34,939 nt of DNA, taken from a virus (lineage: Duplodnaviria; Caudoviricetes). The DNA is taken from positions 1 through 34,939 of IMG/VR virus record IMGVR_UViG_3300007511_000065. One strand, given 5' to 3'. The notes beneath the pieces were generated by a model. It did not search any database. It saw only the letters and a program-made list of their open reading frames with translations, and was not told the DNA's origin. The position numbers were made by a program, and so were the translations under genes. This document shows, one piece after another, positions 1 through 26,063 of the stretch (positions are counted from its first letter, which is position 1; every line of letters begins with the position of its first letter).

Positions 1-687
1 AGCTGCATCTACGATTAAATCCCATTTGGCAGAATCAGTGTTACTAGATATTGGCAAACTACCACTAGCAGTATGAGCGGTATTACAAATATAAATGTTA
101 TTGTTGCCAGTATCTTTAATTAAGTCACGCTGGTCATATACTGTTGTTGCTGCCCAATTACCTTGGAAAACACCAATTTCTTGCGTAGCAACAAGGTTAC
201 CTGAAGTATCATAGGCTAATAGTTTAGATGCACGCTCAGTAGCTGTTGCTGTAATTTCTACAGTTCCGGCATCTGTTGTGGTCTTAGAAAACTTATATGA
301 CCTATCTAAAGCATCTTGGATTTCTTGCTGAATTGAGGTAAGCTTATCTAAAGCGCCTTCGTGTGTCTCAGCTGGAAAATCATCATTATCTACATAATCA
401 ACTTCTTGCGTAAGAGACGTATCCCTATAAACAACAATCTTTTCAGTAGATGCTAATGTTGAATAAGTTGATCCCGATTTAGGGAATGTTACCGTGCCGC
501 TAGCTGCACCTGCGCCTGTGACAGTATAATCTGTATTAAGAACAAGAGTCGATTCAACCCCTGTTGAATTATCAACATGGGTACATTTAATCTCTGTCTC
601 AACAGAATGCTTATAATTAAAAGTGAAAACGGTAGTGCTACCGTCACCAGTAAAGCTTTCTCTCGATATTGTTGTAGAAATAGTCAT
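1..687 (-). CDS. Tail fibre protein, N-terminal part (runs off the window)
   Basis: Not in the ORF track; hand-translated MTISTTISRESFTGDGSTTVFTFNY...DYTVTGAG...FPAETHEGALDKLT, resembling the T7 gp17-type fibre anchor. ATG at 687 overlaps the upstream TGA (ATGA); the frame is open to position 1. Confidence 0.88.
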   Translation of the reverse strand, partial: MTISTTISRESFTGDGSTTVFTFNYKHSVETEIKCTHVDNSTGVESTLVLNTDYTVTGAGAASGTVTFPKSGSTYSTLASTEKIVVYRDTSLTQEVDYVDNDDFPAETHEGALDKLTSIQQEIQDALDRSYKFSKTTTDAGTVEITATATERASKLLAYDTSGNLVATQEIGVFQGNWAATTVYDQRDLIKDTGNNNIYICNTAHTASGSLPISSNTDSAKWDLIVDAA

Positions 688-3600
688 CTATATCCTCCAC
701 CGTATTTTATAACAGAACTAGGCGGTATGTAAAACTTTTGCCCTTGGTGCTGTTTGATCCTAGATTCTAGCCTGCTTAAATACCCCGGGTTAACCAACTC
801 TTGTATATTATACAACAGAAAATAATCTAAAGCGGCTCTTGTGTAAAATAAATTTATTCCAGGGGTATTGTTCATAGCGAAGCGAACTGATCTAGCAGCC
901 GTATCTTCACCTCGAATAAATCGTGAGTATAATTCAGCAATGTCATCCATCTGACCAAAAGTAGGACCTGCCATAGTAGCTGTGAATGATCGTCCAAATC
1001 TATTGAACTCACCAAACATAAAATCTCCATAGATACCTAGACCACCACCTTGTGTGAAAGCAGCAATCCATGTTTTTGGATCATCAGGATCTCTTGGTTC
1101 TCTTCCTTTAGAAGCATCTTTAGCTGCCAAAGCCATATACCCGAATATTGTTGTTCCCAGTATTAAGTGAGATAAACCTTTAATATCACCATTGCCTTTT
1201 AACAAAGCTTCCTTAAGAGACTTAGCGCCTGCGCCATGTAATTCACGGCCAAGAGGTTTTGTTAAAACAGTTACAGGGAATGATTTAAACTGCATGATAA
1301 ATCTAAGAGCTTCACCAAGAGGAGTACCTGGTTGAGTTCCTTGCTTCATGATAGCCTGTTCTCTATCTCCAGGAGTAGGCACAGCAAAATCTACACGATC
1401 AGTAAAGTACATACGAAGAGCATCTTCAAGATCATCTTTATACTGTTGGATCTTATGTGTATGAGACTTTGGTGTAGAAGCCTTCATAAGATCTTTAATA
1501 TCAATAGCTGTTGGTAACTTATCTTTTTCAGTTACTCCTAAGCGTGTGGCAATATCATCACGTCTAGCAATAAGCTTATCAATAAGCTCCTTCTGAAGTT
1601 TCTTTTGCGTTGGACCGAATGTCTTAACCAAGATATTAATTTCTTCATCAGTAACACCCGCAACTCTTCTAGCACCGTTTATTATTTGATCTTCTGTCAG
1701 ATCACCAAAAGCATATTTGCCTTGAGAAGAGGATGGTAGGGTTTCCAATTCACCCACTTTTTTTGTAAATTTAGAGCCCTTAGGTTCCCCCATACCCCTA
1801 AACAGGAGTGCACCACCCTCATCTATATGGGTAGCTTTCCCGCCTATCATTTGAACATTATCAAAACCAGTTCCTAGAACATCCCAGTTAGCTAGCCAAG
1901 CATGAACAACAAAATCATCTTTAAGATTGGGCTCTAGTCCAATGGCTGCTCCAGCTTGCTTCATATCAACACGATCAGAAACAACACCTAGTTTTCCTTT
2001 ATCACCAACATTTGATAGATGCTTATTAAGAACACGAACACCAAGAAGCTGATATAGGCGATTAGCTAAGATTTCATTCCTAGCAACCTTATCATCTTCT
2101 GTCTTCATAAAGTATTCTTTGCCAAACTTATCCTTAAAGAAACCACCAGGACTTGAACCAGTTGCTGGCTTTTGCCCTGTAGGCGTTAAGTCACCTTTAT
2201 AAAACTTCAAGCCAGTTGCTGCCTTAGGAACAACGCCAAGGGCTTGCATGACGCTTTCATCGGAAAGTTGTCTTACTGCTTCAGGAGTAATATGTCCATC
2301 TTGATAATCTAATGATCTGATAACATTCCACTTGGCTTCATCAATATTGTACAAGCCAAAAACCCTCTGCATTTCAGGATCAAGTTGATCCCAAGGGTTT
2401 GCTTTTTGCATGAACATATGCTTTGACATCATAAGACCAGCGGCTGTCTTTTGAGAGTCAGTCCACCAGGATAACAGATTTAATCTAAAGAATCCTTGTT
2501 GTAATTTAGACATTCTTCCAGGAAGTGAATCAGTAGCACCAAATCTAGATAAGATGGTACCGATCATACCTTCAAAACCTACTCCTAAGAGATCTGCAAT
2601 TTCTCTACGCTCTGCACCAGAACGTCCTTTCATAACTCCATTAAAGGCATTTGAGTAACCTTTCAATAAGCCATGGCCTTGATAGCGTAACTCAGCCGCG
2701 TGGAAAGGAATATCAGTAATAGCTGATAATGTTGCAGCTCCAAGTTTCGCCATATTATTAACAGCACGAACGATTGCTCCACCTGACGCCATAGTCTGGT
2801 TAACAGGGATACGCGCCGAACCATCTACTTCAGCATAATAAGCATCGATGATATTTGATCGTAGCTTTTTAGTTGCTGCGTAGTTATCACGATTATCATC
2901 TAGTAATCTTTTCCTAATCTTATTAAACATTCCCTCAGGATTTGTTCCTAAGTTTTTCATAAGAGCAATGTTTCGAGCACTATGCTCTAGTCCAAAGACG
3001 ACTGATTCAGATAATCCTTGCGTACCGAACTGTCGATTATAATCATACCAATCATCAGCAGATTTAAAATGTAGAACTCGCTCTTGCGAGATTCTTTTAG
3101 CTAAATTGCTAGGACCAGTAAATGCCGCTGCATCATCTGCAGCATGACCTCCACGAGCTTTTAAATGTGTACCTGAAGTCAATGCCAAATAAGTAGCATT
3201 TAGAAACTCATCAATTTCTTTTGGATTTAATTCTTTGAATGTCTGGTCTGGATCAATATGCTTTAATGCAACTTGCTTCCATTTTTCGAAGCCAGCTTTT
3301 CTAATCTTAAACTGATCATGTGATTGACGTGTGATATAACCAGGAAGCTTTTTAATCCATGCACCAACAGAGTTTTGCTGATGAACAGCTACGTCCTGAT
3401 ATTTCTTAACAATCTTAGCGATCTCAATAGCTTCTGAACGAATACCTTTTAGATTACCATCTGTATCCATTGACCAAAGAGCTCTAGCAATATCTCGATC
3501 ATACTCTTTACTATTGAAGTGCTTTATTAGTTTAGCATTCTCTAGATCATAGAGCATTCCACCAACAAACTTACCAAAGATAGATTTACTTTGTGCACTA

Positions 3601-3947
3601 ATAGAAGCGCGTGATCCTTTAATATTACTATTCAGACCAACTAAATATGAAACTAAGCCAAGGCCTTGATTCTCAAATTGCTGAATATGCTGATACGCTT
3701 TGTTCTCAGCAACAATATTAAAGACTGCATTTCTCTTTTGTATTACTGATGCTGTTAAAAGATCATTAATAATTTCATCAGAAGCTTGTGCTAATATATC
3801 AGCTTGATTTTCTGCCGTAGCTCCAGCACCTTTTAATGACTTCGCTGCTTTAACTTTCTTCTCAAGTAAGCCTAAGATCTCAAGAGCCTCATGGTCCTTA
3901 ATATCTGTAACGACTTCCTTAATAGTGTTAATACATTCTTGTGCCAT
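684..3947 (-). CDS. Large internal virion/ejection protein with embedded PI3K/HipA-like kinase domain (aa ~587-803)
   Basis: 1087 aa, last gene before the fibre, in the position of podovirus large ejection proteins. Ala/Gly-rich helical body; internal motifs GSSPGG, YFMK, NEILA, WLANWD..DN and HIDEGG. Confidence 0.85.
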   Translation of the reverse strand: MAQECINTIKEVVTDIKDHEALEILGLLEKKVKAAKSLKGAGATAENQADILAQASDEIINDLLTASVIQKRNAVFNIVAENKAYQHIQQFENQGLGLVSYLVGLNSNIKGSRASISAQSKSIFGKFVGGMLYDLENAKLIKHFNSKEYDRDIARALWSMDTDGNLKGIRSEAIEIAKIVKKYQDVAVHQQNSVGAWIKKLPGYITRQSHDQFKIRKAGFEKWKQVALKHIDPDQTFKELNPKEIDEFLNATYLALTSGTHLKARGGHAADDAAAFTGPSNLAKRISQERVLHFKSADDWYDYNRQFGTQGLSESVVFGLEHSARNIALMKNLGTNPEGMFNKIRKRLLDDNRDNYAATKKLRSNIIDAYYAEVDGSARIPVNQTMASGGAIVRAVNNMAKLGAATLSAITDIPFHAAELRYQGHGLLKGYSNAFNGVMKGRSGAERREIADLLGVGFEGMIGTILSRFGATDSLPGRMSKLQQGFFRLNLLSWWTDSQKTAAGLMMSKHMFMQKANPWDQLDPEMQRVFGLYNIDEAKWNVIRSLDYQDGHITPEAVRQLSDESVMQALGVVPKAATGLKFYKGDLTPTGQKPATGSSPGGFFKDKFGKEYFMKTEDDKVARNEILANRLYQLLGVRVLNKHLSNVGDKGKLGVVSDRVDMKQAGAAIGLEPNLKDDFVVHAWLANWDVLGTGFDNVQMIGGKATHIDEGGALLFRGMGEPKGSKFTKKVGELETLPSSSQGKYAFGDLTEDQIINGARRVAGVTDEEINILVKTFGPTQKKLQKELIDKLIARRDDIATRLGVTEKDKLPTAIDIKDLMKASTPKSHTHKIQQYKDDLEDALRMYFTDRVDFAVPTPGDREQAIMKQGTQPGTPLGEALRFIMQFKSFPVTVLTKPLGRELHGAGAKSLKEALLKGNGDIKGLSHLILGTTIFGYMALAAKDASKGREPRDPDDPKTWIAAFTQGGGLGIYGDFMFGEFNRFGRSFTATMAGPTFGQMDDIAELYSRFIRGEDTAARSVRFAMNNTPGINLFYTRAALDYFLLYNIQELVNPGYLSRLESRIKQHQGQKFYIPPSSVIKYGGGYR

Positions 3948-5875
3948 TATACTTTACCGTTCATACACATTGAAGCAATCTTAATAGCCGAAGCCCATTT
4001 TTTTGAATCATTAATAACTGTATCCATATCATCTATCATTTTTCTTTGCTCTTTTGTTACTAAGCCTAGCCTATCATGCTCAGCTAGAATCTCTAAGAAT
4101 TCATCTAGCTTTGTTTGAGCTTGCGCTTCATCAAATTGCTTAGGAATAGTTTTTAAAATTTCACCGAAAGCTAGCGCTTGTTCGACATCAACTGATGAGA
4201 TATTTTCTGTTTTACCAGTTGCACGTAATGCAGCTGCAATATCTTCATTAGTAGCTTTCGATAAAACTCCATCATAATCTTTAGGTAATAATTGAGCCGA
4301 TATTTCATAATATTCACCTCCCGCATTTTTCCTCTTTTTTATGCTGCGAATGAAGAATGATTCATTTCGTCCAAGCATAAATTCTCTTTCGCCGTAGAAT
4401 TGACTTCTACCATGTTGTCCAGGCGACGCAGCATGATCAACAACCATTCCTTTAGTACCAGCAGGCATAGACACTTTCCAAAATGTCCTAACATGGTTAT
4501 CTGGCGTATGGTGCGACATGAAGTCTATGCCGGTTTCCCTCTTAAAAGATCCGGCAAAGAAAGTAGGTATTGCATGTTTTTGCCCAGCAACAATATCATT
4601 GATTAAACTAGCTGATAAATTCTGACCGCGGAATAAGAACATTGGTTGATCTAACGTTTGCTTTTTCGTGGCCGAATCTAATTGCTCTATTATCTTGCGT
4701 AAATGCGGATCTTTTATTTGATCAAGATCACTGCCATGCTTAGTAACTGCTTGCAAAATAGCCTTTGTAATTTCAGCATGATTATGTCCTTGCCAATAGC
4801 GTGCTGCAGCTGTTTCATCTCCTGTAAAGGTTTTCTCTTTAAAAGCTTTTGCCTTCATATCTTTTAGCCACGTTTTTATTTGTGGCCAAGAAAGTCCTTT
4901 CGTTCTTTCATGAACGTTTAGAATACCTTCAAGTTGTTTCCAGGTTTGTTCTTCTGAATAATCTTTAGCCGCAGTTGCCTCATCATCTACATGTTTTTGC
5001 ACATTAGGAACAGCTTCATCAGGTTCATTTTTAATGATAGTAATATCATCATCACCGAAAGCTATTTTAGAAGGTGCGGAATCTTGTGCTGTTAAATCAC
5101 TTAATGATTTTTTAATAACAGTATCTGCTGCTGTAACCGTCCTTCCTTCATCAACCATTTTAGTTGCCCATTGGAAAGCTTCTACTCTCTTCCTGAAAGT
5201 AGTCATACCACCCCAATCACCAAGGACTTTACCAAAAACTAGGCGTAAGCCACCGGCTAAAGTAGCTCCACCTAAAACAGAAATCATTGAATCAATGAGA
5301 CCATAATCCGCTTGCTCGCGTTGTGCAACAGCATATGTAATAGGTTCAACAGCGGAAATACCAACAAGACCTTCAGCAAAACCTCTAGAAAAACGAGCTC
5401 CCGTTATTCCCATGGTAGCACCCATTCTTACAAAGGTTTGTTCACGCGTAATAGGAATAAACATTGCTGCAACATTTAATGGATCAACTAATGATCCAAG
5501 CATTGCTGAACCAAAACGTAATGCACCGCCTCCATCAGCACGATTAATAACATGCTGTAAGCGTCGTTCATTACGTTTTTCTTCTGCTATAGCTTCTGCT
5601 AAACGTTTATTAATTGTTGGCTCTTCTTCCTCATCCCAATGAAGACCTAAATCTCTATACTTTTCATTTGCTTCACTAGTAAGCATTCTTTCGGGTTTAA
5701 CTTTTTCGATAGCATCATAACGCATCGAGCGAAGTGCAGAAAACCCTGGACCATACTTTACAGCAATATCAAACGAAGCTCCGGCGGAACGTCCACTAGA
5801 TACAGGCATTCTACTGAGTAGAGGAGAAGCCTCTATTCTAGGATCTGGAGTAAATCTATTAACTCGTGGTAGCAC
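3947..5875 (-). CDS. Internal virion/ejection protein with ADP-ribosyltransferase domain (aa ~350-531)
   Basis: N-terminal ejection-protein-like segment (GSLVDPLN, Gly/Ala-rich hydrophobic stretches). R-S-E ART motifs LFRG (R416), FFAGS (S443) and GEREF (E496/E498). GTG start coupled to the upstream stop. Confidence 0.82.
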   Translation of the reverse strand: MLPRVNRFTPDPRIEASPLLSRMPVSSGRSAGASFDIAVKYGPGFSALRSMRYDAIEKVKPERMLTSEANEKYRDLGLHWDEEEEPTINKRLAEAIAEEKRNERRLQHVINRADGGGALRFGSAMLGSLVDPLNVAAMFIPITREQTFVRMGATMGITGARFSRGFAEGLVGISAVEPITYAVAQREQADYGLIDSMISVLGGATLAGGLRLVFGKVLGDWGGMTTFRKRVEAFQWATKMVDEGRTVTAADTVIKKSLSDLTAQDSAPSKIAFGDDDITIIKNEPDEAVPNVQKHVDDEATAAKDYSEEQTWKQLEGILNVHERTKGLSWPQIKTWLKDMKAKAFKEKTFTGDETAAARYWQGHNHAEITKAILQAVTKHGSDLDQIKDPHLRKIIEQLDSATKKQTLDQPMFLFRGQNLSASLINDIVAGQKHAIPTFFAGSFKRETGIDFMSHHTPDNHVRTFWKVSMPAGTKGMVVDHAASPGQHGRSQFYGEREFMLGRNESFFIRSIKKRKNAGGEYYEISAQLLPKDYDGVLSKATNEDIAAALRATGKTENISSVDVEQALAFGEILKTIPKQFDEAQAQTKLDEFLEILAEHDRLGLVTKEQRKMIDDMDTVINDSKKWASAIKIASMCMNGKV

Positions 5876-8328
5876 TAGAAATTATCCTGTGGTAGAAATT
5901 CATCATCTTTCATCTTGAGTATATGTAGCTTTTTCTGCTGAATAAACTCAAGGTGGGTTATTTTCCCTGAAGTATATAGTTTTCTTAATTCATCTAGAGA
6001 ATATTTTGGCGTTGGACGAACGTCGTCATTCTTAGGAGATGGTACATACGGGACAAATGGTATTTTGTCATTCATGATTTGATCAAGGGAAACAGAGATC
6101 GTTTTACCGTCATACATTAAAGGTATCTCAGCACCGGATAAATCTGTTATTACATAAATGTAGTTGTTATGACCGTCATTTCGCCAGTGACCATATTCAC
6201 CTGCAGTTAAAGCCATCTCTGAATTAGCAAACTCATCAGTAACCCAAGGTTGCTGCTTAATAACATCTAATTGATTTTTGCCAAAGCCGAACGTTCTAGC
6301 GACATCTTCAAAAGAGGACGTATTAGATAACCAAGCATGAACCTTTTCGGGAACAACAGGCTTGCCAGTATCCGAGTTAATATTAGGGATAGAGACAATT
6401 GAGTCAACCTCATCACCAGGAATCGTTACGAATGAAGCATGCTTATTAATAAGGTTATCTAAAATAAAATCAACTGATTCACTTGGGCCTGAATTTGTTG
6501 ATCTGCCATGCATAATAGCTAGGTCAACAACAGTCTGCTCAAGTTCAGCTAGCTGCTTAGAACTGTTTGCATCGAAGCCAAAAACTTCAGCGTATTTAGC
6601 CAAGCCACTTTCTGCTGCAGTAACAAAATCTGCTGACTTTTCACCAGATAATCTAAGATCAGCAATATCTTTTTCAGTCATACTTAAGTATGACTTAGCA
6701 TATGGAGCTAGGTGAATGTTATCATATGTTAACAAAGCGAACTCAATTTTACTACCGAGAGTTTGACTAGATTTTTCTGCAAATTCTTGTCTAATACGCG
6801 GCCAATATTCTCCTTCAGCACCACCGAAGTAATTTTCCATTTGAGCAAAGACATCAGTTAGCTTCTTCGGGTTAGTTAGGTTATTCTGTATTTGAGTTAA
6901 CCATCGATCAACAATAGGGTCAGGGATAACTTCAGTATAGGCTTCAGCCATGCCATTATTAATTTGAGAAGTAATAGATGCATCAATATATGCTTTCCAA
7001 AGATTAGGATCATTTCCATCTACGGCTGCTTCATAAGCTTGTGAGACGGTTAAATCATTTTGTAAAACATACGACGCTGGAGCATTATTAAATTGCTTTA
7101 TACGTGATTCATACGAAGCCAGTACTCTTCCAGCAATAACTTGTCTTTCAGTTGCATTTATTTCTTTTGCATCATCAACAATCTCCCAAGAACTAGCCTT
7201 ATAGTCAGGATTTTTATTACCATCAGCTAGAAAAGGCATCATCTCAATAACAGACTCATCTTGGTTAAGAAGCAATTTACCTTCAACAACCTCTCGCTGT
7301 TTATGATAACCTTTAGCATTTCTAGCGGCGACTATATATTTTTCAACATTAGCGTCACAAGGTGGAGATAAGCATGAATTATTTCTAATTATATTTAGAT
7401 CAACATCACCTTGCCCCGTTGCTTCCATTGAAGAAATAGAATCATCAATATTTCTTTCTGTCTGTATAACTAATGCAGCAGAATTTTTTAACTCTTGATC
7501 ATCTGCTTTAAGCTTATAGTAAGTTAATTCTGCTGATGTTAAGCCTTTCGCCCAATCAGGTGTTGACTTAGCTAGTTCATTTTGCAAAACTTCAGGAGCA
7601 GAATCTAATAGAGCATCAGCTCGCGCTTTAGCAAGATCATGCTTAATACTAGTTCGTAAAGTTGAAACTTGCTTAGGAGTCAACTTATGGGACGCTGACC
7701 AAAAAGCAATCTGCGATTCTACTTGCTGTTCAATAACTCCCCAGCGTTCCATACTAGTAGGATCTGCTAAGGTACCATTTAGAATTTCATTTGTCCAACC
7801 GGTGATTGCTTCTTCACGGTTTTTAGTATTCCATTCCATTTGTTGAATGGCTTCCCATGAATAAGCTGATTTATGTACGGATTCTTTATATCGATAAATT
7901 CCTTCATCAACAGCTCTCTGACCATCTTTTGTTGTAAATTTACTTTTAAGATAATCGGCATGTTGCTGATAGTTAAATCTTTTAGTAACTTCTCGTCCGT
8001 CTTCTATGACAGTAACATCACGAGGAGTTTCGAAAAAATCTCTAGTAAAACCATCTGGTGATTTATCTTTTGACCAGCCTGTTTTAGCGTCAATAAAATT
8101 AGTATCCCACGTTGTTCTAAACTTAGATAGTTCTGAACTAGAATACTCTTTTTCTTCTTTTTGCTTATTCAGTTGATGAACTGTTTCACCAAGCCTTGTT
8201 AAGTTACTACCTAAGGATTGATATGCAGCCATGATACCCGCTGTCTCACTTCCTGAAAACCTAGGTGTATGTTGTCCTGAAGTTTGTAGTGTAGATGAAT
8301 CAGCTAAGTATTGTTGTATTTTTGCCAT
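5875..8328 (-). CDS. Internal virion/ejection protein (T7 gp15-like position)
   Basis: 817 aa, RBS AGGAGG, MAKI-type start, helical; syntenic with podovirus ejection genes. Confidence 0.7.
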   Translation of the reverse strand: MAKIQQYLADSSTLQTSGQHTPRFSGSETAGIMAAYQSLGSNLTRLGETVHQLNKQKEEKEYSSSELSKFRTTWDTNFIDAKTGWSKDKSPDGFTRDFFETPRDVTVIEDGREVTKRFNYQQHADYLKSKFTTKDGQRAVDEGIYRYKESVHKSAYSWEAIQQMEWNTKNREEAITGWTNEILNGTLADPTSMERWGVIEQQVESQIAFWSASHKLTPKQVSTLRTSIKHDLAKARADALLDSAPEVLQNELAKSTPDWAKGLTSAELTYYKLKADDQELKNSAALVIQTERNIDDSISSMEATGQGDVDLNIIRNNSCLSPPCDANVEKYIVAARNAKGYHKQREVVEGKLLLNQDESVIEMMPFLADGNKNPDYKASSWEIVDDAKEINATERQVIAGRVLASYESRIKQFNNAPASYVLQNDLTVSQAYEAAVDGNDPNLWKAYIDASITSQINNGMAEAYTEVIPDPIVDRWLTQIQNNLTNPKKLTDVFAQMENYFGGAEGEYWPRIRQEFAEKSSQTLGSKIEFALLTYDNIHLAPYAKSYLSMTEKDIADLRLSGEKSADFVTAAESGLAKYAEVFGFDANSSKQLAELEQTVVDLAIMHGRSTNSGPSESVDFILDNLINKHASFVTIPGDEVDSIVSIPNINSDTGKPVVPEKVHAWLSNTSSFEDVARTFGFGKNQLDVIKQQPWVTDEFANSEMALTAGEYGHWRNDGHNNYIYVITDLSGAEIPLMYDGKTISVSLDQIMNDKIPFVPYVPSPKNDDVRPTPKYSLDELRKLYTSGKITHLEFIQQKKLHILKMKDDEFLPQDNF

Positions 8329-8344
8329 ATATCCTCCTAATCAG

Positions 8345-8785
8345 TCACGACGTAACCGACGCATATGATGCTGCACCACTAGCTAAAAGAGAAGCTGAAC
8401 GAGCTATGCCTTCAGTTTTAGCATATTTAGCTCGCATTCCTTCCATGACGGCTTCTTGCTCAGCTCTATTTGCTTGATATTCACCTGTATGGATAATTCT
8501 CTTTTCATCTAGTAAGGATTCCATTTCATTCTCTTGCATAACTTCAAGAGGCGTTCCTTCCATGAGAACTCCGGATTTTCCATAGATAGCTCTATTCTTG
8601 CCTTGCATTTTTGCAACACGATGTCTATGATCTTCTACTTCAGCTGCTGCAGCTTGTTTGCGATACTCGGCTTCTTGCCTTGCTGCTTCTGCATTGTACT
8701 GATGCATTTGTGCCTGCTGTTTTGCAGCCTGCATTGTACCAGCTATACCAACAATCGTTCCAACAATGATTAATGCTTGAGCCAT
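8345..8785 (-). CDS. Small internal virion protein (T7 gp14-like)
   Basis: Hydrophobic N-terminus, Q/A-rich coiled coil, G-x-SGV-x2-EGTP motif; follows the GNAT gene. Confidence 0.8.
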   Translation of the reverse strand: MAQALIIVGTIVGIAGTMQAAKQQAQMHQYNAEAARQEAEYRKQAAAAEVEDHRHRVAKMQGKNRAIYGKSGVLMEGTPLEVMQENEMESLLDEKRIIHTGEYQANRAEQEAVMEGMRAKYAKTEGIARSASLLASGAASYASVTS

Positions 8786-8787
8786 AT

Positions 8788-9237
8788 CTAATCTCTAGTT
8801 CTAGCGTACATGACGTAATTATCACCTTCTGGTGAAAAATTCTTCAAGACACCTTCTTGCTTAAATCCCATCCATTCTACCCAGTTGCGTGATACCTTAT
8901 AGTCTTCTCTAACAGTAACTTGTAATCTGTGCAACTTAAAGTTATCTTCTATTAATTTTAACCCGTTTAGCACTGCACGAGCAACACTAATTTTATTTTC
9001 TTCGATTTTATTCGAACCGATTAAATAAGCATCTGCAACACCTTTCCAATGAACTATGCATCCTGCAAAAGCAATTATTTCACCGTCTTTTATTCCTGTA
9101 TATGCTGCTCCCTTGTTCTTGTACATCCAAGCCCATTCATCACTGATGCCATCTCTTGTGGCCATGTACATGTCAGCATTTCTAATATTGTCTCGTAATA
9201 ATTTTAAATGAACTTCTTCAAAAGGGATAATCTTCAT
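8788..9237 (-). CDS. GNAT acetyltransferase-like virion-module protein (T7 gp13-like position)
   Basis: LHRLQVTV...WVEWMGFKQEGVLK..PEG.NY.MYAR is a RimJ/GNAT-like C-terminus; lies after tail tubular B. Confidence 0.8.
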   Translation of the reverse strand: MKIIPFEEVHLKLLRDNIRNADMYMATRDGISDEWAWMYKNKGAAYTGIKDGEIIAFAGCIVHWKGVADAYLIGSNKIEENKISVARAVLNGLKLIEDNFKLHRLQVTVREDYKVSRNWVEWMGFKQEGVLKNFSPEGDNYVMYARTRD

Positions 9238-10994
9238 CGATCCCCCGTATCTGCATATAAAATCAATGCCAATATATTCATTGGCAATGGATCATTTTGT
9301 AAGACAACTGCTTGACTTTGTCTATCCCAACCACTAGGAAAATTAAGAACTTTATCACCAGTAAATAATGGTGGAGATGATCCCATAGGAGAAGATGATG
9401 GACGTAGCATTGCTGGATCCGTATTACTCTCTGTTGGACCATACTCACAACCTAATGATTCATGGAAACGAATACCCAAAGCAATAATTCTCTTAAGATG
9501 CGTCTGAGAAGTACCAGAAGCTACTCCACCTTCATAATCAACGGTCTGAACTACTGAGGTATAGGCTAAGCCAACTTGAACCTTCGTTGCTGCTTTAGAC
9601 AGAGTAATTCCACCGGAAGAAACTGTCTTAGATGGTTGAACTGCTCCATCAGCTAGAATACTAACTGTTTCACCTTCTAGATGAGATAATCCAGAAATAG
9701 TTGTAGTAGACGTTCCATTATATTCTAAAGAACTATCTACAAAAATAGCGCCATCCTTGTCTTGCGTAGTCAACGGGTAATAGTCTTTACTAATATATTC
9801 TATGTACCTCTTAGTCGATCCATTAATTGTTCTCTTAACAGAGACCCAAACTTCATCTTGTCCTTCTGAACCAGGAATGATTGAAACACTTTCAACTTCA
9901 GAATCTGTTCCACCTAGTATATGTTGAGACCAAGCAATGACATCATCATTAGGTGAAAATGTCATTGATAATAATTGACCTGTATCTGTAACGCACCATG
10001 TAATTTGATTACGCGTTTTCTGGTATTCAATCTGCTTTATAACTGTTTTATTACTTAAATGTTCTGAAAGTATAGATAGATCTTTGCCAGTATAACTGTC
10101 ATTTTCAAAGATGTATTTAAACTCTCTAACTTTGTGTCCTTCTCGCTGGACAAATAGTACTGATGTATCTACTTTAACAGGTTTAACTTGTTGACAACCG
10201 TATGTTGTCTCAAGAGTAATTCTAACGTTTGTTGGAGTCACTGGCTCATTTAAAGCAGAAGCACGAACAATATATTCACCACTAAGGGTTCCTACAGCTA
10301 ATACTTTACCTGATGAGAGCCAGCGAATAGACGATACGTCTCCCGAAGCGATTGTATATCTTAATGACATATCGTCAGCCACGGGAGTCTCAGTATAATC
10401 TTCGTAGTCACCTGTCTTACTTGCAAACAGCTTTTGTGGATCGTTATTTGTTCCACCCCACCATAAACGTTCTTCATAAAAAGCAACTGCTGCAGGACAA
10501 TTATCTGAACCGTCTGCGCCGAATGGATCTGACGTAGGAGTAAAGTTTGATAATGTCCAGGCAGTATGGCCTGTTCTACTAATTTTTCTAGGCTTGTAAC
10601 TCGGATGTGCTAAATATAAAACATCAGCACTTTGTACAAATTGAATTTCGAATAAGTCAGCTTCTAAATAAGGAGTGGAAATCTCATAAGGAGATCCACC
10701 TGAGGTAACTTGACCTTGGTCTTTGAAGACGCGCATATATTGATCACCAAACTCTAAAATATAAGCTTGTGTGAGTGAAAACTCGAAACGAATAAGTCGA
10801 ACTTTCTTAGCGCTATTTTTTACTTCTGCTACGAAACGTGTTCCTGTCCTTCTAAAAACTCCCCCGTGGGTTTGGACAATAACGTTTTTTAATGTCTCTG
10901 CAGTATTAAAATACTTATCGAAGTCTACTCGACCTTTAAGTCTTGGGCTAATTTCCCCTGCGGTAAAATTCGATTGTAGTATTGCTTGTCGCAT
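9234..10994 (-). CDS. Tail tubular protein B (nozzle)
   Basis: QSNFTAGEISPRL.GR.D...Y, GG..RR.GT.FV and QSADVLYLAHP motifs; 586 aa, beta-rich. Confidence 0.92.
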   Translation of the reverse strand: MRQAILQSNFTAGEISPRLKGRVDFDKYFNTAETLKNVIVQTHGGVFRRTGTRFVAEVKNSAKKVRLIRFEFSLTQAYILEFGDQYMRVFKDQGQVTSGGSPYEISTPYLEADLFEIQFVQSADVLYLAHPSYKPRKISRTGHTAWTLSNFTPTSDPFGADGSDNCPAAVAFYEERLWWGGTNNDPQKLFASKTGDYEDYTETPVADDMSLRYTIASGDVSSIRWLSSGKVLAVGTLSGEYIVRASALNEPVTPTNVRITLETTYGCQQVKPVKVDTSVLFVQREGHKVREFKYIFENDSYTGKDLSILSEHLSNKTVIKQIEYQKTRNQITWCVTDTGQLLSMTFSPNDDVIAWSQHILGGTDSEVESVSIIPGSEGQDEVWVSVKRTINGSTKRYIEYISKDYYPLTTQDKDGAIFVDSSLEYNGTSTTTISGLSHLEGETVSILADGAVQPSKTVSSGGITLSKAATKVQVGLAYTSVVQTVDYEGGVASGTSQTHLKRIIALGIRFHESLGCEYGPTESNTDPAMLRPSSSPMGSSPPLFTGDKVLNFPSGWDRQSQAVVLQNDPLPMNILALILYADTGDR

Positions 10995-21112: not shown

Positions 21113-22953
21113 TTTACATTCCCCCAGTTAGGTCCTATCTCTGCATCACAGAGAATAGGTATAGTTATTTCAGGCATACATTCCTCCATGATCTTCTTTA
21201 TCTCAGCAGCTTCTTTTAGACCCTCTATTGATAAATCTACTTCATCGTGTACTGTCAATTGTGGGGTATAACCAGCATCGTCTAATAAGACAATAGCTTT
21301 CTTCATCATATCAGCACTAGATCCTTGTATAAGAGCATTCAGTGCTTTATATGTGAAAGCGCGGCGTATCAGCGGACCATATTCTTCTAATGCCTCCTTT
21401 CTTGGTAATGGCTTATCATAACCACTATACTTCGTAGGTTCCCATAGATCAAACCTTCTCTTTCTGCCGAGGATAGTTTTTAAATATCCACGACGTGAAA
21501 CTGTGTTAGTGCAATAATCTTGCAGTCCTTTAACAAAAGGAACTTTCTCATGATATTGATGAAAGATTCTTTTAGACTCTTCAGGTGTCATACCTAATTG
21601 CTCAGTCATTCTTCTTGTGCCCATACCATAAGTCATTCCCAGGTTCAATGTCTTTGCAGTGGTTCGGTTAACGTTCGCCATCTCAGCAATCATGGTATGA
21701 TAATCTGTAGACGGGTCCTCTATAAATTGTTTTGCTGCATCTAAGGCACCTGGGAACTTTAGCAAGCTTGCGTAATGTATTGTAACACGGGGTTCTTGCT
21801 GGCTATAGTCGAATTTCCCCCATAAAGATCCTTCATCTGGAATAAATAAAGATCTTATTTGTGGTCCTATGCCATCACCACGTGCAGGTACTTGTTGTAA
21901 GTTAGGATTTGCAGAACTAAATCTACCAGAAACTGTTCCACCATCATCTCTTCGTAACTGATGGAATTGCGTGAATATTCTACCATTCTTAGAATGATCT
22001 AGAATCATGTTTTGTAGAAAAGTTCCGCGTGCTTTATTTAGTTTTCTTGTTTCTAGAATAGTAGAAGCAATCTCATGAGGGTCGCTAGCTAAAAATTGTT
22101 GGGTAAATGAGGGATTACCCTTATCGGTGGTATTATAGGGTAAACCTAAGGTCCTATAGGCCTTTTCGATACTTTTACTAGACCATATATCAATTGGATT
22201 ACCCGCTATGCGAGTCATTCGCTTAGATAATTCCTGTTCTTTAATACCCCAAGCATCATATAGTTCTTCTGTTTTATCTACATCAACGGCTACACCGCGT
22301 ATTCTCATTTTAAATAATACTGATTGCAGCTTTGACTCTAACTGAAAAAGATCCCACAAGCCTTCTTTTTTAAGCTTTTCGCGTTGTATAGCAAAGATTT
22401 TCATAGGTAAGACAGCATCTTGCTCTGCGTAAGGTCCTACATATTTACTAGGTAATTGCCACAAGCCAGCTTTAACATCTTTAATACCATAAGCATCCGC
22501 GGCTATTTTAAGCAGTTCTTCGTCTTTACTGTCTCCAAGATATTCTTCAGCAAGAGCCTGGAGGGCGAAACTTCTTTTATTTTCATCAAGTAAAGGCTCG
22601 GCTATTTGTATATCCCATAAAGGTCCACTGACGTGTATATCTTCAGTCCATAACCATTCTAGATCATATAATAAGTTTGCCCCGCATTTAGGGATATTCG
22701 TAGATAAAACTTCTTGCAGCCAGGAGACAATAACTTTCTTGTCCATATTTCCTGACTTATGACCTATAGGGAAATAGCCTACAAAACCTGTGTCTGTGGC
22801 TATGGAGACACCAGCTAAGTGTCCATCATGTCGAACACCTCCTGGTCCTAGTTTCTTTAGATTTGGATCGTTAGTTTCAGTATCTAACGATATGATTGAT
22901 GCATTAGATAAGTTCGGCAGCTCCGAAGGTGGTCTCCAGATACTCTCTGTCAT
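21109..22953 (-). CDS. polA: Family A DNA polymerase with 3'-5' exonuclease domain
   Basis: Exo SLDTET, N..YDL and YAEQDA; SGRFSS.NPNLQQVP; motif A DYSQQEPR, motif B RTTAKTLNLGMTYG, motif C VHDE. Start moved to ATG 22953 after GGAG. Confidence 0.95.
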   Translation of the reverse strand: MTESIWRPPSELPNLSNASIISLDTETNDPNLKKLGPGGVRHDGHLAGVSIATDTGFVGYFPIGHKSGNMDKKVIVSWLQEVLSTNIPKCGANLLYDLEWLWTEDIHVSGPLWDIQIAEPLLDENKRSFALQALAEEYLGDSKDEELLKIAADAYGIKDVKAGLWQLPSKYVGPYAEQDAVLPMKIFAIQREKLKKEGLWDLFQLESKLQSVLFKMRIRGVAVDVDKTEELYDAWGIKEQELSKRMTRIAGNPIDIWSSKSIEKAYRTLGLPYNTTDKGNPSFTQQFLASDPHEIASTILETRKLNKARGTFLQNMILDHSKNGRIFTQFHQLRRDDGGTVSGRFSSANPNLQQVPARGDGIGPQIRSLFIPDEGSLWGKFDYSQQEPRVTIHYASLLKFPGALDAAKQFIEDPSTDYHTMIAEMANVNRTTAKTLNLGMTYGMGTRRMTEQLGMTPEESKRIFHQYHEKVPFVKGLQDYCTNTVSRRGYLKTILGRKRRFDLWEPTKYSGYDKPLPRKEALEEYGPLIRRAFTYKALNALIQGSSADMMKKAIVLLDDAGYTPQLTVHDEVDLSIEGLKEAAEIKKIMEECMPEITIPILCDAEIGPNWGNVK

Positions 22954-23374
22954 ATTCGTTTCTCCAGTATCGTCCTGCTTTCTTCCATAATTCTTGTCCT
23001 GATGAAGGATAGTCTTCAAGAAAAATGATGCGTGTACAGGAAGTATTCAACAGTAGTTTTGTGCATGTAATACAAGGTGCTGTTGTGCAATAGCACGTCT
23101 TAATTTCGTAGACGTCTCTGCACTGTAATAAAGCATTCTGTTCTGCATGTATTGCTTCACATTCATTTAAAAAACTGCCCGAAGGCTTTTCAGCCCCCGG
23201 ACAGGGTTCTTCTATGCAATGACTCATACCAGCAGCTCCGCCATTATAACCGGTAGCAAGAACATGGTGACGCCCGCTGACAAGGACACAACCAACTTGT
23301 CTTCTTGCACAAGTACCGCGTTTAGCTACTAGTTTAGCCATTTCAAGGAAGTAGGTATCGCGATCAATCCTCAC
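22904..23374 (-). CDS. dCMP deaminase family protein
   Basis: C.RRQVG, TGYNG, HAEQNA and PC..C zinc-deaminase motifs. Confidence 0.93.
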   Translation of the reverse strand: MRIDRDTYFLEMAKLVAKRGTCARRQVGCVLVSGRHHVLATGYNGGAAGMSHCIEEPCPGAEKPSGSFLNECEAIHAEQNALLQCRDVYEIKTCYCTTAPCITCTKLLLNTSCTRIIFLEDYPSSGQELWKKAGRYWRNEYDREYLETTFGAAELI

Positions 23375-24167
23375 GAACGAAAACCTCCGTCATGAAGTTA
23401 GTAGGACATTCAATAATCCTACCATGAGCAAGACCGCGCAATTGCTCAACTAACTGACATTGTGATGTAAAATCATATGGATTAAATGGTTCGTATTCCC
23501 ATGTTCTTATTTCTGAATAGAGAACATCACCGGCTTTTTCCCAATTACGTTGATACAAATGCTGAGAACCTGCTGTTAGATATAAGTTACCTAACGTCAA
23601 ATCAGTCAAACCTCTGTTTCGCAACATTAGCATTATGTAACCAGTAAGCATAGTAAAGTTAAATACGTCATATGGCCAACCAAGCCAAGCATCACTAGAT
23701 CTCATTGTATCGTGACAGTTAATTACACCATCACGAATAGTCCATTGAATAGCAACGGTACAAGGTATGTCTTTACTAGGCCGCGGGTTAGGTCTCCATA
23801 TAGTCATTACCGCTTGTCTTGTATCGTTATCCTTTAAGAGCATATCACATACGTAATTCAATTGGTCTACTACTCGAGGGCCATATGCACCATTAAACCG
23901 CATACCATCATCACTGAATTGCTCTATCACTTTACTGTACGGAGCAATAGTTGCTACTCTGTTATCACCAGTGATGATCCATCTAGCTTCTGCTGGCATA
24001 AATTTATAGCCTAGCTTTCTCTCGCAGACAGTAACAATAGGATATTTCATATCAACAATAGAAGTATATGCAAGCTCTTCTCTTACCAGCATACCCCTTG
24101 GGTTACAGGTGGGTGCATCAAGCATTTTATTCAATAAGGCTATCCAAGCTTCATTTGCTGTTGCCAT
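23364..24167 (-). CDS. Thymidylate synthase homologue, probable dCMP hydroxymethylase/methylase
   Basis: YGPR, DTRQA, catalytic PC(136)T, RSSDAWLGWPYD(167) and SQHLY; Asp at the position of E. coli ThyA Asn177. Confidence 0.88.
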   Translation of the reverse strand: MATANEAWIALLNKMLDAPTCNPRGMLVREELAYTSIVDMKYPIVTVCERKLGYKFMPAEARWIITGDNRVATIAPYSKVIEQFSDDGMRFNGAYGPRVVDQLNYVCDMLLKDNDTRQAVMTIWRPNPRPSKDIPCTVAIQWTIRDGVINCHDTMRSSDAWLGWPYDVFNFTMLTGYIMLMLRNRGLTDLTLGNLYLTAGSQHLYQRNWEKAGDVLYSEIRTWEYEPFNPYDFTSQCQLVEQLRGLAHGRIIECPTNFMTEVFVRED

Positions 24168-24231
24168 GTTTTACCTCCTCATAATATAGGTATAACAAAA
24201 AGGAAATCCAGATGATACCAAAAACAATCAT
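24151..24231 (-). CDS. Possible 26-aa hydrophobic peptide
   Basis: MIVFGIIWISFLLYLYYEEVKHGNSK, ATGA-coupled to the kinase stop. Confidence 0.35.
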   Translation of the reverse strand: MIVFGIIWISFLLYLYYEEVKHGNSK

Positions 24232-24836
24232 TGCTGTAACCATCTTAGAGCTCCTTGGATGTTTCTAGCATCCATTGCGAATTGTTCAACTTGACCACCA
24301 TGATCTTCAATACAATAACGTAGACCATCTACTCTGTTTTGGAAACCTCCGCCACGGGTAATTCGAGCAGCAAGGCTATCACCTTTACAAGATTTATTGC
24401 CATACCACAGATCTATATAACGCTTGCAAACAGCTTCCATATTGTCATACATTTCATCTCTTGTTTCGCGCATTTCTTTATGCCGAGCAACACCCGCCTT
24501 AACTGTCTTTGGCATTGCGATGATATATAAAGCACTAGCCTGTTGAGCTTTAATGTCCATAATTTGTTCATTAAAAGTAGGATCTGACCCATCTCTATAA
24601 ACAGCTGCATAAATATTTTCACTCATCCAGAGTCTGTCAATGACAACCAAACGCGTTTTAGATGCTTCAATAGCGTCATGAAGAATACCAAGCTGATAAC
24701 TATACATATCCAAATCATCATCATAGGTAAGATGAATATACTCACTACCAGGGGATATCTGACATATCTTGTTTGCCAAGGTGGTTTTACCTGTCGCATC
24801 TGGTCCATCAATAATAATCAATCCTTTATGCTTCAT
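24228..24836 (-). CDS. P-loop nucleotide monophosphate kinase (thymidylate-kinase-like)
   Basis: IIIDGPDATGKTT Walker A and VIDR...SE.IY motif. Confidence 0.85.
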   Translation of the reverse strand: MKHKGLIIIDGPDATGKTTLANKICQISPGSEYIHLTYDDDLDMYSYQLGILHDAIEASKTRLVVIDRLWMSENIYAAVYRDGSDPTFNEQIMDIKAQQASALYIIAMPKTVKAGVARHKEMRETRDEMYDNMEAVCKRYIDLWYGNKSCKGDSLAARITRGGGFQNRVDGLRYCIEDHGGQVEQFAMDARNIQGALRWLQQ

Positions 24837-25246
24837 CGATAATCCCTCTCTTCTGCCATAAAGGCTTCCATAACAATACCTTCAATATCAGGAGATTTCC
24901 AGTCATCTGGTTTTACTACATCAAGAAGTGTACCTCGTTTAGAGTCATCAGCATTATTGGCGCGCACTTTACTCATGTTTGCTCGCTGAACTTCATCCCA
25001 ACCTTCTTGCCAAGGGAAACCCATACCGTAAGCTGTTCCCATAGCAACATAAACAAGATCGATTAATGCATCAAAGACTTCAGCATAATCCGCTTTTTCC
25101 AAGCCAGCTTCTAATTCAGCTAATTCTTCTTTAAGAAAGTTTACCCTAAATTCTTGGTAATGTTTAGATCCAAGGTCTGGTTTACCTATCTGCTTTAAAC
25201 CAAATTTTTCATGAAAAGCAATAATGTCTTTATACATATCAGCCAC
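24833..25246 (-). CDS. MazG-like all-alpha (d)NTP pyrophosphohydrolase
   Basis: FHEKFG, EELAE, DALIDLVYV..G, V..ANMSK and KP..W..P. Start is GTG 25246 (GGAGG RBS) or ATG 25237, not 25384. Confidence 0.88.
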   Translation of the reverse strand: MADMYKDIIAFHEKFGLKQIGKPDLGSKHYQEFRVNFLKEELAELEAGLEKADYAEVFDALIDLVYVAMGTAYGMGFPWQEGWDEVQRANMSKVRANNADDSKRGTLLDVVKPDDWKSPDIEGIVMEAFMAEERDYR

Positions 25247-26063
25247 GACAATCCTCCCAATGATCAGAACTAGAATAAGGTGTTTCAATACAAGACCATG
25301 GTGGGAAAATATCTGGCTTGTCCATACTTTTATGTGTAACTCTCCAAATAACATTTCGTGAATGTTCAGGAAATAATGGAGCAAACATAACGGCTAAAAA
25401 GTTCACATCATAATATTCTCTTAAAGCATCAAAAGCACCGTCAAGTTCCCATTCATATAACTTGTTTTTATAATCGGTAATAGAAGCAAAAGTTCCGTAA
25501 TGAGCCTCAATAGTAAAGCCGTGATCTTCTAACATACGACCAAAGGCTTCGTAGGTCATCTCATTGACGTGGTTTGCTGCTGCTTTACCATTAAAGCAAG
25601 GGGTAGAAATAAAAGCTACACCGTCATTAGTCAAATGTTCTTTAATAGTTTTAAGCATGCGATGAACGTGCTCAGGCTCAATATGTTCAACAACTTCAAA
25701 ACATGTAATTATATTTCGATCGTTGGGCAAAGCTAGTCCTGTAACATCACCACTAATTAATTCAATTGGAAACTTACCGGTGTGGAACATTTCAGGTACT
25801 TCCAATTTGTTTACGTCAACTCCAATATAGTCTTTTGCTATCATTCGAGATGAGTACATTGTTTTAGCTAATGGAACTTCTTTACCGCAGCCAATATCTA
25901 AAATCTTGGCATTCTTATAGCGTCCTTTAGCATTCAAATATTTGATTACATGGGTCCATCTAAGTACATGTGCAATATAATCTCTGTGAATAAACCCACG
26001 TTTTTCGGCTGTGTCTAATGACAAGTGGGTGTTGTCAATAGCCTTTCCTCTAGCATTCGCCAT
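25239..26063 (-). CDS. Class I SAM-dependent methyltransferase (small-molecule type)
   Basis: ILDIGCG, YIGVD, CFEVVEH, G...ISTP and H..E motifs; no DNA-MTase DPPY/NPPY/PC motif seen; RBS AGGAG. Confidence 0.88.
   Translation of the reverse strand: MANARGKAIDNTHLSLDTAEKRGFIHRDYIAHVLRWTHVIKYLNAKGRYKNAKILDIGCGKEVPLAKTMYSSRMIAKDYIGVDVNKLEVPEMFHTGKFPIELISGDVTGLALPNDRNIITCFEVVEHIEPEHVHRMLKTIKEHLTNDGVAFISTPCFNGKAAANHVNEMTYEAFGRMLEDHGFTIEAHYGTFASITDYKNKLYEWELDGAFDALREYYDVNFLAVMFAPLFPEHSRNVIWRVTHKSMDKPDIFPPWSCIETPYSSSDHWEDCRG

What the first reader, a model, noticed from the sequence alone, without database searches (positions are those of the whole stretch)
1539..2189. Kinase domain embedded in the large DNA-ejection protein
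Seen: aa ~587-803 of the 1087-aa virion protein carry a full atypical kinase motif set: Gly loop GSSPGG (597-602), K615, helix-C E625, catalytic D689...N697 and Mg-binding IDEG (D709). Lys/Pro-rich linkers flank it. Known: this layout matches PI3K/PI4K-, HipA- and LepB-like kinases, and podovirus ejection proteins enter the cell with the DNA. T7 gp0.7 is a phage kinase but an early gene product. Inference: a kinase delivered at injection, able to phosphorylate host defence, translation or lipid targets before any phage transcription.
Basis: partly seen in the sequence, partly recalled or inferred. Interest (0 to 1): 0.85.

Follow-up and report, generated by a model that had tools for sequence, protein, structure and literature searches.

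The report
Kinase built into phage DNA-ejection protein
A marine short-tailed phage carries a complete domain predicted to fold as a kinase inside a protein it likely uses to push DNA into the cell, and an ADP-ribosyltransferase-like domain in the neighbouring one, so it would deliver two protein-modifying enzymes at the moment of infection, though neither activity nor delivery is tested.

Summary
Confirmed and extended. The 1087-aa gene (684-3947, -) is a full-length homologue of epsilon15 gp17, and a model of an insert-less relative resembles T7 gp16-type core proteins. Residues ~573-826 are an insertion: 117 of 119 aligned homologues lack it, one 67%-identical relative shares it, one has an unrelated insert there. 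The insert folds confidently (pLDDT 93) as an atypical kinase (CtkA Z 13.9, CotH 12.7, PI4KII 12.3, HipA 10.5), and K615, E625, D689, N697, D709 are nearly invariant. It belongs to a large family with no Pfam, PHROG or NCBIfam model (3,922 clusters), mostly fused to phage MuF, portal or prohead protease, often with ADP-ribosyltransferase (ART) or Nudix domains, and also present in a HopAG1-like effector. Best reading: ejectosome-borne early effectors. Substrate, cytoplasmic delivery and activity are untested; a PI3K, LepB or HipA label is not earned. The scan had no look-alike of this sequence on record; it noted other enzyme cargo in ejection proteins.

The parts
684..3947 (-). 1087-aa third (last) large ejection-block protein; epsilon15 gp17 homologue, T7 gp16-like scaffold with an inserted kinase
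   Evidence: phrog_684 E 6e-190, 840-position profile over aa 1-1079; hhalign of 78 relatives to epsilon15 gp17 probability 100, E 5e-45, 806 columns; top 6 Foldseek rows for a relative's model are podophage core proteins, E 3e-3 to 6e-2
1470..2231 (-). Inserted segment, aa ~573-826 (kinase plus linkers), in a loop between two scaffold helices
   Evidence: absent from 117 of 119 aligned homologues; site is the loop between helices 564-571 and 578-603 of the insert-less model; GC and GC3 like the flanks
1548..2177 (-).
   Evidence: AlphaFold pLDDT 92.9; VIA Z 13.9 CtkA, 12.7 CotH, 12.3 PI4KII-alpha, 11.3 MavQ, 10.9 actin-fragmin kinase, 10.5 HipA
2142..2159 (-). Gly-rich loop GSSPGG (family consensus GSNPGG)
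2073..2105 (-). K615 (strand) to E625 (helix C-like) ion pair
1821..1883 (-). Catalytic loop D689...N697 and metal-binding D709 (IDEGG)
1122..1178 (-). Conserved hydrophobic helix aa 924-942, candidate membrane segment, C-terminal to the kinase
   Evidence: hydropathy peak in this protein and the strongest peak across 78 relatives
3947..5875 (-). 642-aa second large ejection-block protein with a lineage-specific ART domain
   Evidence: N-terminal part matches phrog_3003, phrog_342 and 'internal virion protein' genes of HTVC010P-type pelagiphages
4283..4843 (-). Alt/VIP2-type ADP-ribosyltransferase domain, aa 345-531, with R416, S443, E496-x-E498
   Evidence: PF03496 40.6 bits against a cut-off of 23.4; residues; absent from 13 of 13 other genes in this position scanned; shared with P0310/P0311
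5875..8328 (-). 817-aa first large ejection-block protein, by position only
   Evidence: no Pfam or PHROG family; same slot as HTVC035P gp49 and epsilon15 gp15
8345..9237 (-). Two small internal virion proteins
   Evidence: phrog_418 and phrog_308
1..687 (-). Tail fibre start, cut by the contig end
   Evidence: phrog_1640 and phrog_6518; 3' open

Best explanation
The gene encodes a homologue of a podophage core (DNA-ejection) protein with a whole domain inserted that is predicted to fold as an atypical kinase; the fusion is likely packaged in the head and ejected with the DNA channel, and the kinase would then phosphorylate host proteins in the cytoplasm before phage genes are expressed. Steps: (1) shown: in-frame insertion, conserved catalytic set, kinase-type model. 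(2) Inferred from homology: the scaffold is the T7 gp16-like protein that is ejected and whose C-terminal body sits in the cytoplasm under the inner membrane. (3) Inferred: the kinase threads through the tail partly unfolded, refolds and stays tethered beside the entering DNA. (4) Inferred: it works alongside the ART of the adjacent ejection protein, as kinase and ART are fused elsewhere in this family, and both modify host defence or gene-expression proteins. Host proteins as substrate is the most likely class, not a shown one.
For: Insertion. Fold and residues. All 12 checked active-site positions are kept in a second lineage although the domain is only 57-58% identical. Scaffold; reviews place epsilon15 gp17 in the core (PMC5850374), say the core exits the capsid (PMC12391199) and put T7 gp16 residues 411-1118 in the cytoplasm (PMC8954989). 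Family habit: 31 of 57 kinase ORFs scanned begin with MuF (23), prohead protease (5) or portal (3), and 5 more follow a portal or head gene; 85 of 149 representatives also hit ART or Nudix profiles, against 0 of 120 scaffold homologues; the homologue in Yersinia phage fHe-Yen8-01 is noted 'phage particle associated protein' by its depositors. Precedents: T4 ARTs injected with DNA and MuF toxins (PMC5576092); T7 kinase disarms defences (PMC13645617). By sequence 43 of 66 members hit HipA_C weakly, best E 3e-5, and HipA is a protein kinase (recalled).
Against: No activity, proteomics or host data for this phage. The structural match of the scaffold is weak (Foldseek E 3e-3 or worse, TM ~0.2; VIA Z 6.2, rmsd 7.8), so which side of the membrane the insert reaches is not fixed, and the periplasm lacks ATP (own knowledge). 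The best structural neighbours mix protein kinases and lipid kinases within about 2 Z units. The insert is on a long branch and diverges faster than the scaffold (58% against 66% and 79%) and has lost a few family-typical residues (N599 to S, Q595 to A). 21 of 57 family ORFs have no recognised head anchor. No immunity or off-switch gene was identified.
Confidence: 0.58

Rival explanations
1. The kinase is delivered as above but phosphorylates a small molecule or lipid, for example NAD+, ADP-ribose or a related immune signal, working with ART and Nudix partners.
For: ART and/or Nudix in 85 of 149 representatives and 29 of 36 other long carriers by precomputed Pfam; kinase plus Nudix recurs in a HopAG1-like effector; lipid kinases PI4KII and MavQ score Z 12.3 and 11.3; tethering would hold it at the membrane.
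Against: Co-fusion in cargo proteins often means a shared carrier, not a shared pathway (PMC5512222); the window has no Nudix; most Gram-negative hosts lack phosphoinositides (own knowledge); the nearest Pfam family by sequence is HipA_C.
Confidence: 0.2
2. The kinase acts on phage parts: it phosphorylates the ejection proteins or itself during late assembly or ejection and so tunes packaging or DNA release, not the host.
For: It is made late with the virion genes and sits on the DNA-gating protein; the Gly-loop Ser is kept in 186 of 218 domains and could be a self-phosphorylation site.
Against: 117 of 119 homologues work without it, and the same domain rides on unrelated carriers, which fits a portable effector better than a fitted regulator.
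Confidence: 0.12
3. The domain is a tolerated passenger in a permissive loop, or never reaches the cytoplasm, and gives no catalytic benefit here.
For: The same loop takes an unrelated ~200-aa helical insert in P0113 and varies from 12 to 65 residues in others; long branch.
Against: All checked catalytic residues are kept across two lineages 42% different in the domain; 250 extra residues per subunit must pass the tail channel; a second enzyme sits in the neighbouring gene.
Confidence: 0.1

Closest known systems
T4 Alt and other head-packaged ADP-ribosyltransferases (PMC9503650, PMC5576092; passages read)
   Same: Protein-modifying enzyme carried in the head and injected with the DNA; the neighbouring gene here has the same ART class (phrog_802 weak hit, PF03496).
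   Different: Here the cargo is a kinase and is built into an essential podophage ejectosome subunit, not a free internal protein or MuF fusion.
MuF toxins and phage polyvalent proteins (Jamet 2017 PMC5576092; Iyer 2017 PMC5512222; passages read)
   Same: Most relatives of this kinase are such fusions (MuF, portal, protease, ART, Nudix).
   Different: The kinase Iyer et al. describe lacks the whole C-terminal subdomain, whereas this one has a full helical C-lobe. Jamet's main text never mentions a kinase. None of 185 other carriers has the gp17-type scaffold.
T7 gp0.7 kinase (Bartolec et al. 2026, PMC13645617; abstract, section 10, passages read)
   Same: Phage kinase that can disable host defences by phosphorylation.
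   Different: Expressed early rather than packaged (recalled); DPV motif and C-terminal shut-off domain, which are not seen here.
CtkA, CotH, PI4KII, MavQ, actin-fragmin kinase, Fam20, HipA/HipT (atypical kinase group)
   Same: Same fold over ~200 aligned residues, Z 10-14, rmsd 3.6-4.1.
   Different: 11-16% identity; no sequence match in the PDB; distinct NWD-x7-N loop and DxGG-L-(F/Y)RAQG signature.
epsilon15 gp17 / T7 gp16 / PhiM1 tetrameric ejection protein
   Same: Scaffold homology and gene order.
   Different: None of the aligned relatives but one carries the kinase; the enzyme known on T7 gp16 is a periplasmic transglycosylase.
HopAG1-like type III effector of the Pseudomonas syringae group
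   Same: A 715-aa ORF with kinase (35% identity over 207 aa, E 3e-28) and Nudix, followed by a cellulase and a phosphothreonine lyase, matching the hopAG1-hopAH1-hopAI1 order.
   Different: The name HopAG1 is my inference from gene order and domains; the passages read mention only its Nudix domain. It is a plant-directed effector, not a virion protein.

Membership tests
Protein-kinase-like superfamily, atypical (CtkA/CotH/PI4K/HipA) group | Bilobed kinase fold | tested here: met
Protein-kinase-like superfamily, atypical (CtkA/CotH/PI4K/HipA) group | Lys-Glu pair, catalytic Asp/Asn, metal-binding Asp | tested here: met
Protein-kinase-like superfamily, atypical (CtkA/CotH/PI4K/HipA) group | ATP-dependent phosphotransfer | not testable with these tools
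   needs an assay
HipA (Pfam HipA_C / HipA_2) | Score above the curated cut-off | tested here: not met
   no hit for this domain; 43 of 66 relatives hit HipA_C only weakly, best E 3e-5
HipA (Pfam HipA_C / HipA_2) | DxH-type catalytic loop (recalled) and toxin-antitoxin context | tested here: not met
   residue after the Asp is V, A or S in 182 of 191 matched domains; flanking genes are virion genes
PI3K/PI4K and LepB-type lipid kinases | PF00454 or PF18640 match; DRH-type loop (recalled) | tested here: not met
   no Pfam hit; only language-model neighbours at 0.91; loop differs
PI3K/PI4K and LepB-type lipid kinases | Phosphoinositide substrate | not testable with these tools
   needs an assay
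Polyvalent-protein kinase of Iyer et al. 2017 | [quoted passage not shown] | tested here: not met
   paper passage against the model's four C-terminal helices
epsilon15 gp17 / phrog_684 core proteins | Full-length sequence homology | tested here: met
epsilon15 gp17 / phrog_684 core proteins | Last of three large genes between tail tubular B and tail fibre | tested here: met
T7 gp16-type ejection protein | Shared fold of the C-terminal body | tested here: inconclusive
   top 6 of 350,542 chains are core proteins but E 3e-3 to 6e-2; VIA Z 6.2, rmsd 7.8, 291 aligned
T7 gp16-type ejection protein | Present in virions and ejected across the inner membrane | not testable with these tools
   reported for relatives only
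Alt/VIP2 (R-S-E) ADP-ribosyltransferases, for gene 3947-5875 | PF03496 above cut-off and R-S-ExE residues | tested here: met
Alt/VIP2 (R-S-E) ADP-ribosyltransferases, for gene 3947-5875 | NAD-dependent transfer to a target | not testable with these tools
   needs an assay

The most novel reading that the evidence does not exclude
An undescribed family of thousands of phage kinases is a general class of virion-delivered effector, partnered with ART and Nudix. This phage has grafted the kinase and the ART onto two subunits of its DNA channel, so the channel itself chemically modifies host defence proteins at the point of DNA entry. The same kinase module has also been recruited into a plant-pathogen type III effector.
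Probability: 0.4. Interest if true: 0.88.

Novelty: new variant of a known kind. Interest (0 to 1): 0.7.

Why it matters
Phage kinases were known as early-expressed genes (T7 gp0.7), and injected enzymes as ARTs, nucleases and internal proteins. A kinase riding on the ejectosome would act before any phage transcription, when restriction and other first-line defences strike. It also exposes a very large unannotated kinase family, with members in cultured phages (Pseudomonas Jeremy and Dolphis, Yersinia fHe-Yen8-01, Gordonia Forza) in which it can be tested now. The insertion loop marks a place where a podophage ejection protein tolerates a 250-residue folded domain, which bears on how these proteins unfold and refold during entry.

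Tried and rejected
Sequence searches of the domain against the PDB gave nothing, single or as a profile; the profile held flanking ART and Nudix domains and so returned those, which says nothing on the kinase. No Pfam, PHROG or NCBIfam model for the domain. The scaffold profile has no PDB sequence match. The second ejection protein did not align to epsilon15 gp16 (probability 0.7), so that equivalence is by position only. No contig was found for the second lineage (P0004 or P0310) in viral or metagenome contigs. A tree of 84 domains (quick search; the careful one did not finish) did not resolve a donor. No compositional sign of recent transfer. No excess of promoter-like sites that would suggest separate expression of the insert (8 found, 11.2 expected). 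No RNA holder listed. The Mecenats66 paper's main text has none of six terms sought. The epsilon15 genetics paper PMC3832910 was not held. Table 1 of PMC8954989 lists epsilon15 proteins whose numbers and lengths do not match the RefSeq record, so I did not use it. Assembly chimera rejected. No complex prediction was run.

Full report
Setting. The window is a whole 34,939-base contig of a podovirus found in marine metagenome runs (8 of 8 listed holders, two studies, six marked as possible sources). Its virion genes run on the minus strand: terminase, portal, major capsid, tail tubular A and B, two small internal virion proteins, three large genes (5875-8328, 3947-5875, 684-3947) and a tail fibre. 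The capsid protein is closest to HTVC010P-type pelagiphages at 56-62% identity, and the gene order matches HTVC035P, SPN1S and epsilon15. The host is unknown.

The observation. The coordinates and all named residues are correct. The reading frame is open over 1087 codons. The exact protein is recorded on 6 contigs from three sources, an IMG/VR contig encodes it at 100%, and a contig from a run not flagged as a source spans both ends of the insert; no joint skipping it was seen in 4 of 4 runs laid (contigs drop rare variants).

It is an insertion. A protein search gave 446 homologues, of which 120 were listed. Aligning 119 of these with the query, 117 have only 12-65 residues between the anchors ITPEAV and KDDLED where the query has 290; P0004 (67% identical) has 291 with the same kinase, and P0113 has 243 of unrelated helical sequence. 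The insert runs from about aa 573 to 826. A kinase profile hit 2 of the 120 listed proteins, the window's own cluster and P0004, and only the window's own locus among 42 loci carrying the scaffold. In an AlphaFold model of an insert-less relative (mean pLDDT 81.6) the site is a short loop between two helices.

The scaffold. It matches phrog_684, and a profile of 78 relatives aligns to epsilon15 gp17 over 806 columns (probability 100, E 5e-45; direct BLAST E 2e-25). A review states that the epsilon15 core is gp17 (PMC5850374, passages) and another paper that the core exits the capsid to form a tube across the periplasm (PMC12391199, passages). The six best Foldseek rows for the scaffold model among 350,542 chains are all podophage core proteins (E1004, PhiM1, T7), but none reaches E 0.001; VIA ranks the PhiM1 ejectosome chain first at Z 6.2, model 90-606 against chain 564-1223. 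This is suggestive of T7 gp16's C-terminal body, which is modelled in the cytoplasm (residues 411-1118) and followed by a membrane region (PMC8954989, section 5 part 1). Here the insert precedes the one conserved hydrophobic helix (aa 924-942), which fits that layout but does not prove it.

The kinase. The domain model has mean pLDDT 92.9. VIA gives CtkA Z 13.9 (rmsd 3.6, 204 aligned), CotH 12.7, PI4KII-alpha 12.3, 7wcf 11.6, MavQ 11.3, actin-fragmin kinase 10.9, Fam20 10.6, HipA 10.5 and HipT 10.2; Foldseek also puts CtkA first. K615, E625, N687, D689, N697 and D709 are kept in 207-215 of 218 domains and in all 8 full-length copies of the two ejection-protein lineages, where the domain is 57-58% identical. 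The loop has seven residues between Asp and Asn in 149 of 191 matched domains and Val, Ala or Ser after the Asp, unlike the DRH and DxH loops of PI3K/PI4K and HipA (recalled). The domain has no Pfam, PHROG or NCBIfam hit; 43 of 66 relatives hit HipA_C weakly. So it works like an atypical kinase but is not a member of HipA, PI3K/PI4K, LepB or the C-lobe-less polyvalent-protein kinase (PMC5512222, passages).

The family. A full search found 3,922 clusters at 50% identity with E up to 0.001 and 2,298 up to 1e-10. Of the 149 best non-self representatives 139 are 700 aa or longer and 85 also hit ART or Nudix profiles built from 10 and 7 carriers (77 ART, 26 Nudix), against 0 of 120 scaffold homologues. 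In IMG/VR 434 stretches matched; the best 80 were kept, and 79 non-self loci hold 86 kinase ORFs. I scanned the first 400 aa of 57 of them, leaving out 5'-cut ORFs, near-duplicates and the short Nudix-kinase forms: 23 begin with MuF or head-morphogenesis domains, 5 with prohead protease, 3 with portal, 5 more follow a portal or head gene, and 21 are unassigned. This sample is biased to close relatives found by one motif. Twenty records of the annotated phage collection carry it; in fHe-Yen8-01 the 2146-aa carrier is noted 'phage particle associated protein' (basis not given in the record), and in Forza it follows the portal gene with an ART two genes on. None of 185 other carriers has the gp17-type scaffold. 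In a quick tree the two ejection-protein kinases form one branch on a long stem with no resolved donor.

A second cargo. The next gene upstream (3947-5875) has an internal-virion-type N-terminus and a PF03496 ART domain at aa 345-531 above the curated cut-off, with R416, S443, E496 and E498. Thirteen other genes in this slot had no ART (11 of them align to its N-terminus), while two 39-40% identical proteins share it (sub-threshold Pfam hits). One kinase-bearing and one ART-bearing member of the second lineage both list a longest contig of 8,204 bases from the same source, which hints that they are neighbours too; I could not fetch that contig. The kinase-ART pair that is fused in many head-cargo proteins is thus present here on two adjacent ejection proteins. 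No Nudix was found in six frames of the window.

Mechanism. Shown: insertion, intact catalytic set, predicted fold, homology of the scaffold, ART in the neighbour. Inferred: packaging (about 0.9), cytoplasmic exposure (about 0.7), and host proteins as substrate. I commit to an ejectosome-tethered protein kinase acting with the ART on host defence or gene-expression proteins at entry (0.58). Rivals are a small-molecule or lipid substrate (0.20), action on phage parts (0.12) and a passenger (0.10). How the producing cell tolerates the enzyme is open; the conserved Gly-loop Ser (186 of 218) could be a self-phosphorylation off-switch as in HipA (recalled, untested).

Comparison and novelty. Head-packaged enzymes are known: ARTs fused to MuF or portal (PMC9503650, passages), MuF toxins (PMC5576092, passages, no mention of kinases in the main text) and polyvalent proteins. 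T7 kinase is an anti-defence enzyme (PMC13645617, abstract, section 10 and passages). Five full-text searches and passages of PMC7824862 showed no description of this kinase family or of a kinase inside an ejection protein; most subscription papers are not searchable here, and the online domain lists that accompany Iyer et al. 2017 and 2022 were not seen and may include the family. A homologue lies in a HopAG1-like effector (gene order from PMC2745422, passages; PMC4981494 and PMC11760712 passages name only its Nudix domain; PMC8150971 does not mention it). PMC11440229 (passages) gave the PhiM1 nomenclature. The scan's own notes had no look-alike sequence but list other enzyme cargo in ejection or head proteins. 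Verdict: real, a new variant of a known kind, interest 0.7.

Noticed in passing
window 4283-4843 (-), in gene 3947-5875: Alt/VIP2-type ART domain with R-S-ExE residues inside the second ejection protein, absent from 13 other genes in that slot.
   Followed up: yes
L208:3143-5290 (+) and L209: HopAG1-like 715-aa ORF of Pseudomonas cerasi and P. fragariae contains this kinase family (35% identity) before its Nudix domain; the passages read describe only the Nudix.
   Followed up: partly
P0113, at the site equal to aa 573-826: An unrelated ~200-aa helical, coiled-coil-like insert in the same scaffold loop; epsilon15 gp17 has about 14 extra residues there. The loop looks like an insertion hotspot.
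   Followed up: partly
L034, L036, L038, L041, L045, L046, L059: Phages with two genes of this kinase family close together: a 1200-1560-aa protein, a ~160-aa gene, then a 504-568-aa kinase protein of the Nudix-fused size class.
   Followed up: no
P0166, P0171 and others: Giant proteins with several copies of the kinase domain (5 matched stretches in a 3416-aa protein).
   Followed up: no
L135-L141, L143, L159: Endozoicomonas genomes hold the closest cellular matches, several per genome; L139 is a MuF-kinase fusion of 1381 aa, and the similar viral locus L028 lies beside an integrase.
   Followed up: partly
window 22904-26063 (-): Cluster of dCMP deaminase, a divergent thymidylate-synthase-like gene, a nucleotide-kinase-like gene, a pyrophosphohydrolase and a methyltransferase next to DNA polymerase A; could be a base-modification pathway.
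   Followed up: no
window 9234-10994 (-): Tail tubular B homologue is 586 aa, shorter than in HTVC035P (~758 aa) and epsilon15 (~825 aa).
   Followed up: no
P0320 and P0326: Two pieces (aa 1-473 and 506-1087 equivalents) of the second-lineage kinase-bearing protein with the same longest-contig size; a split gene or an assembly error.
   Followed up: no
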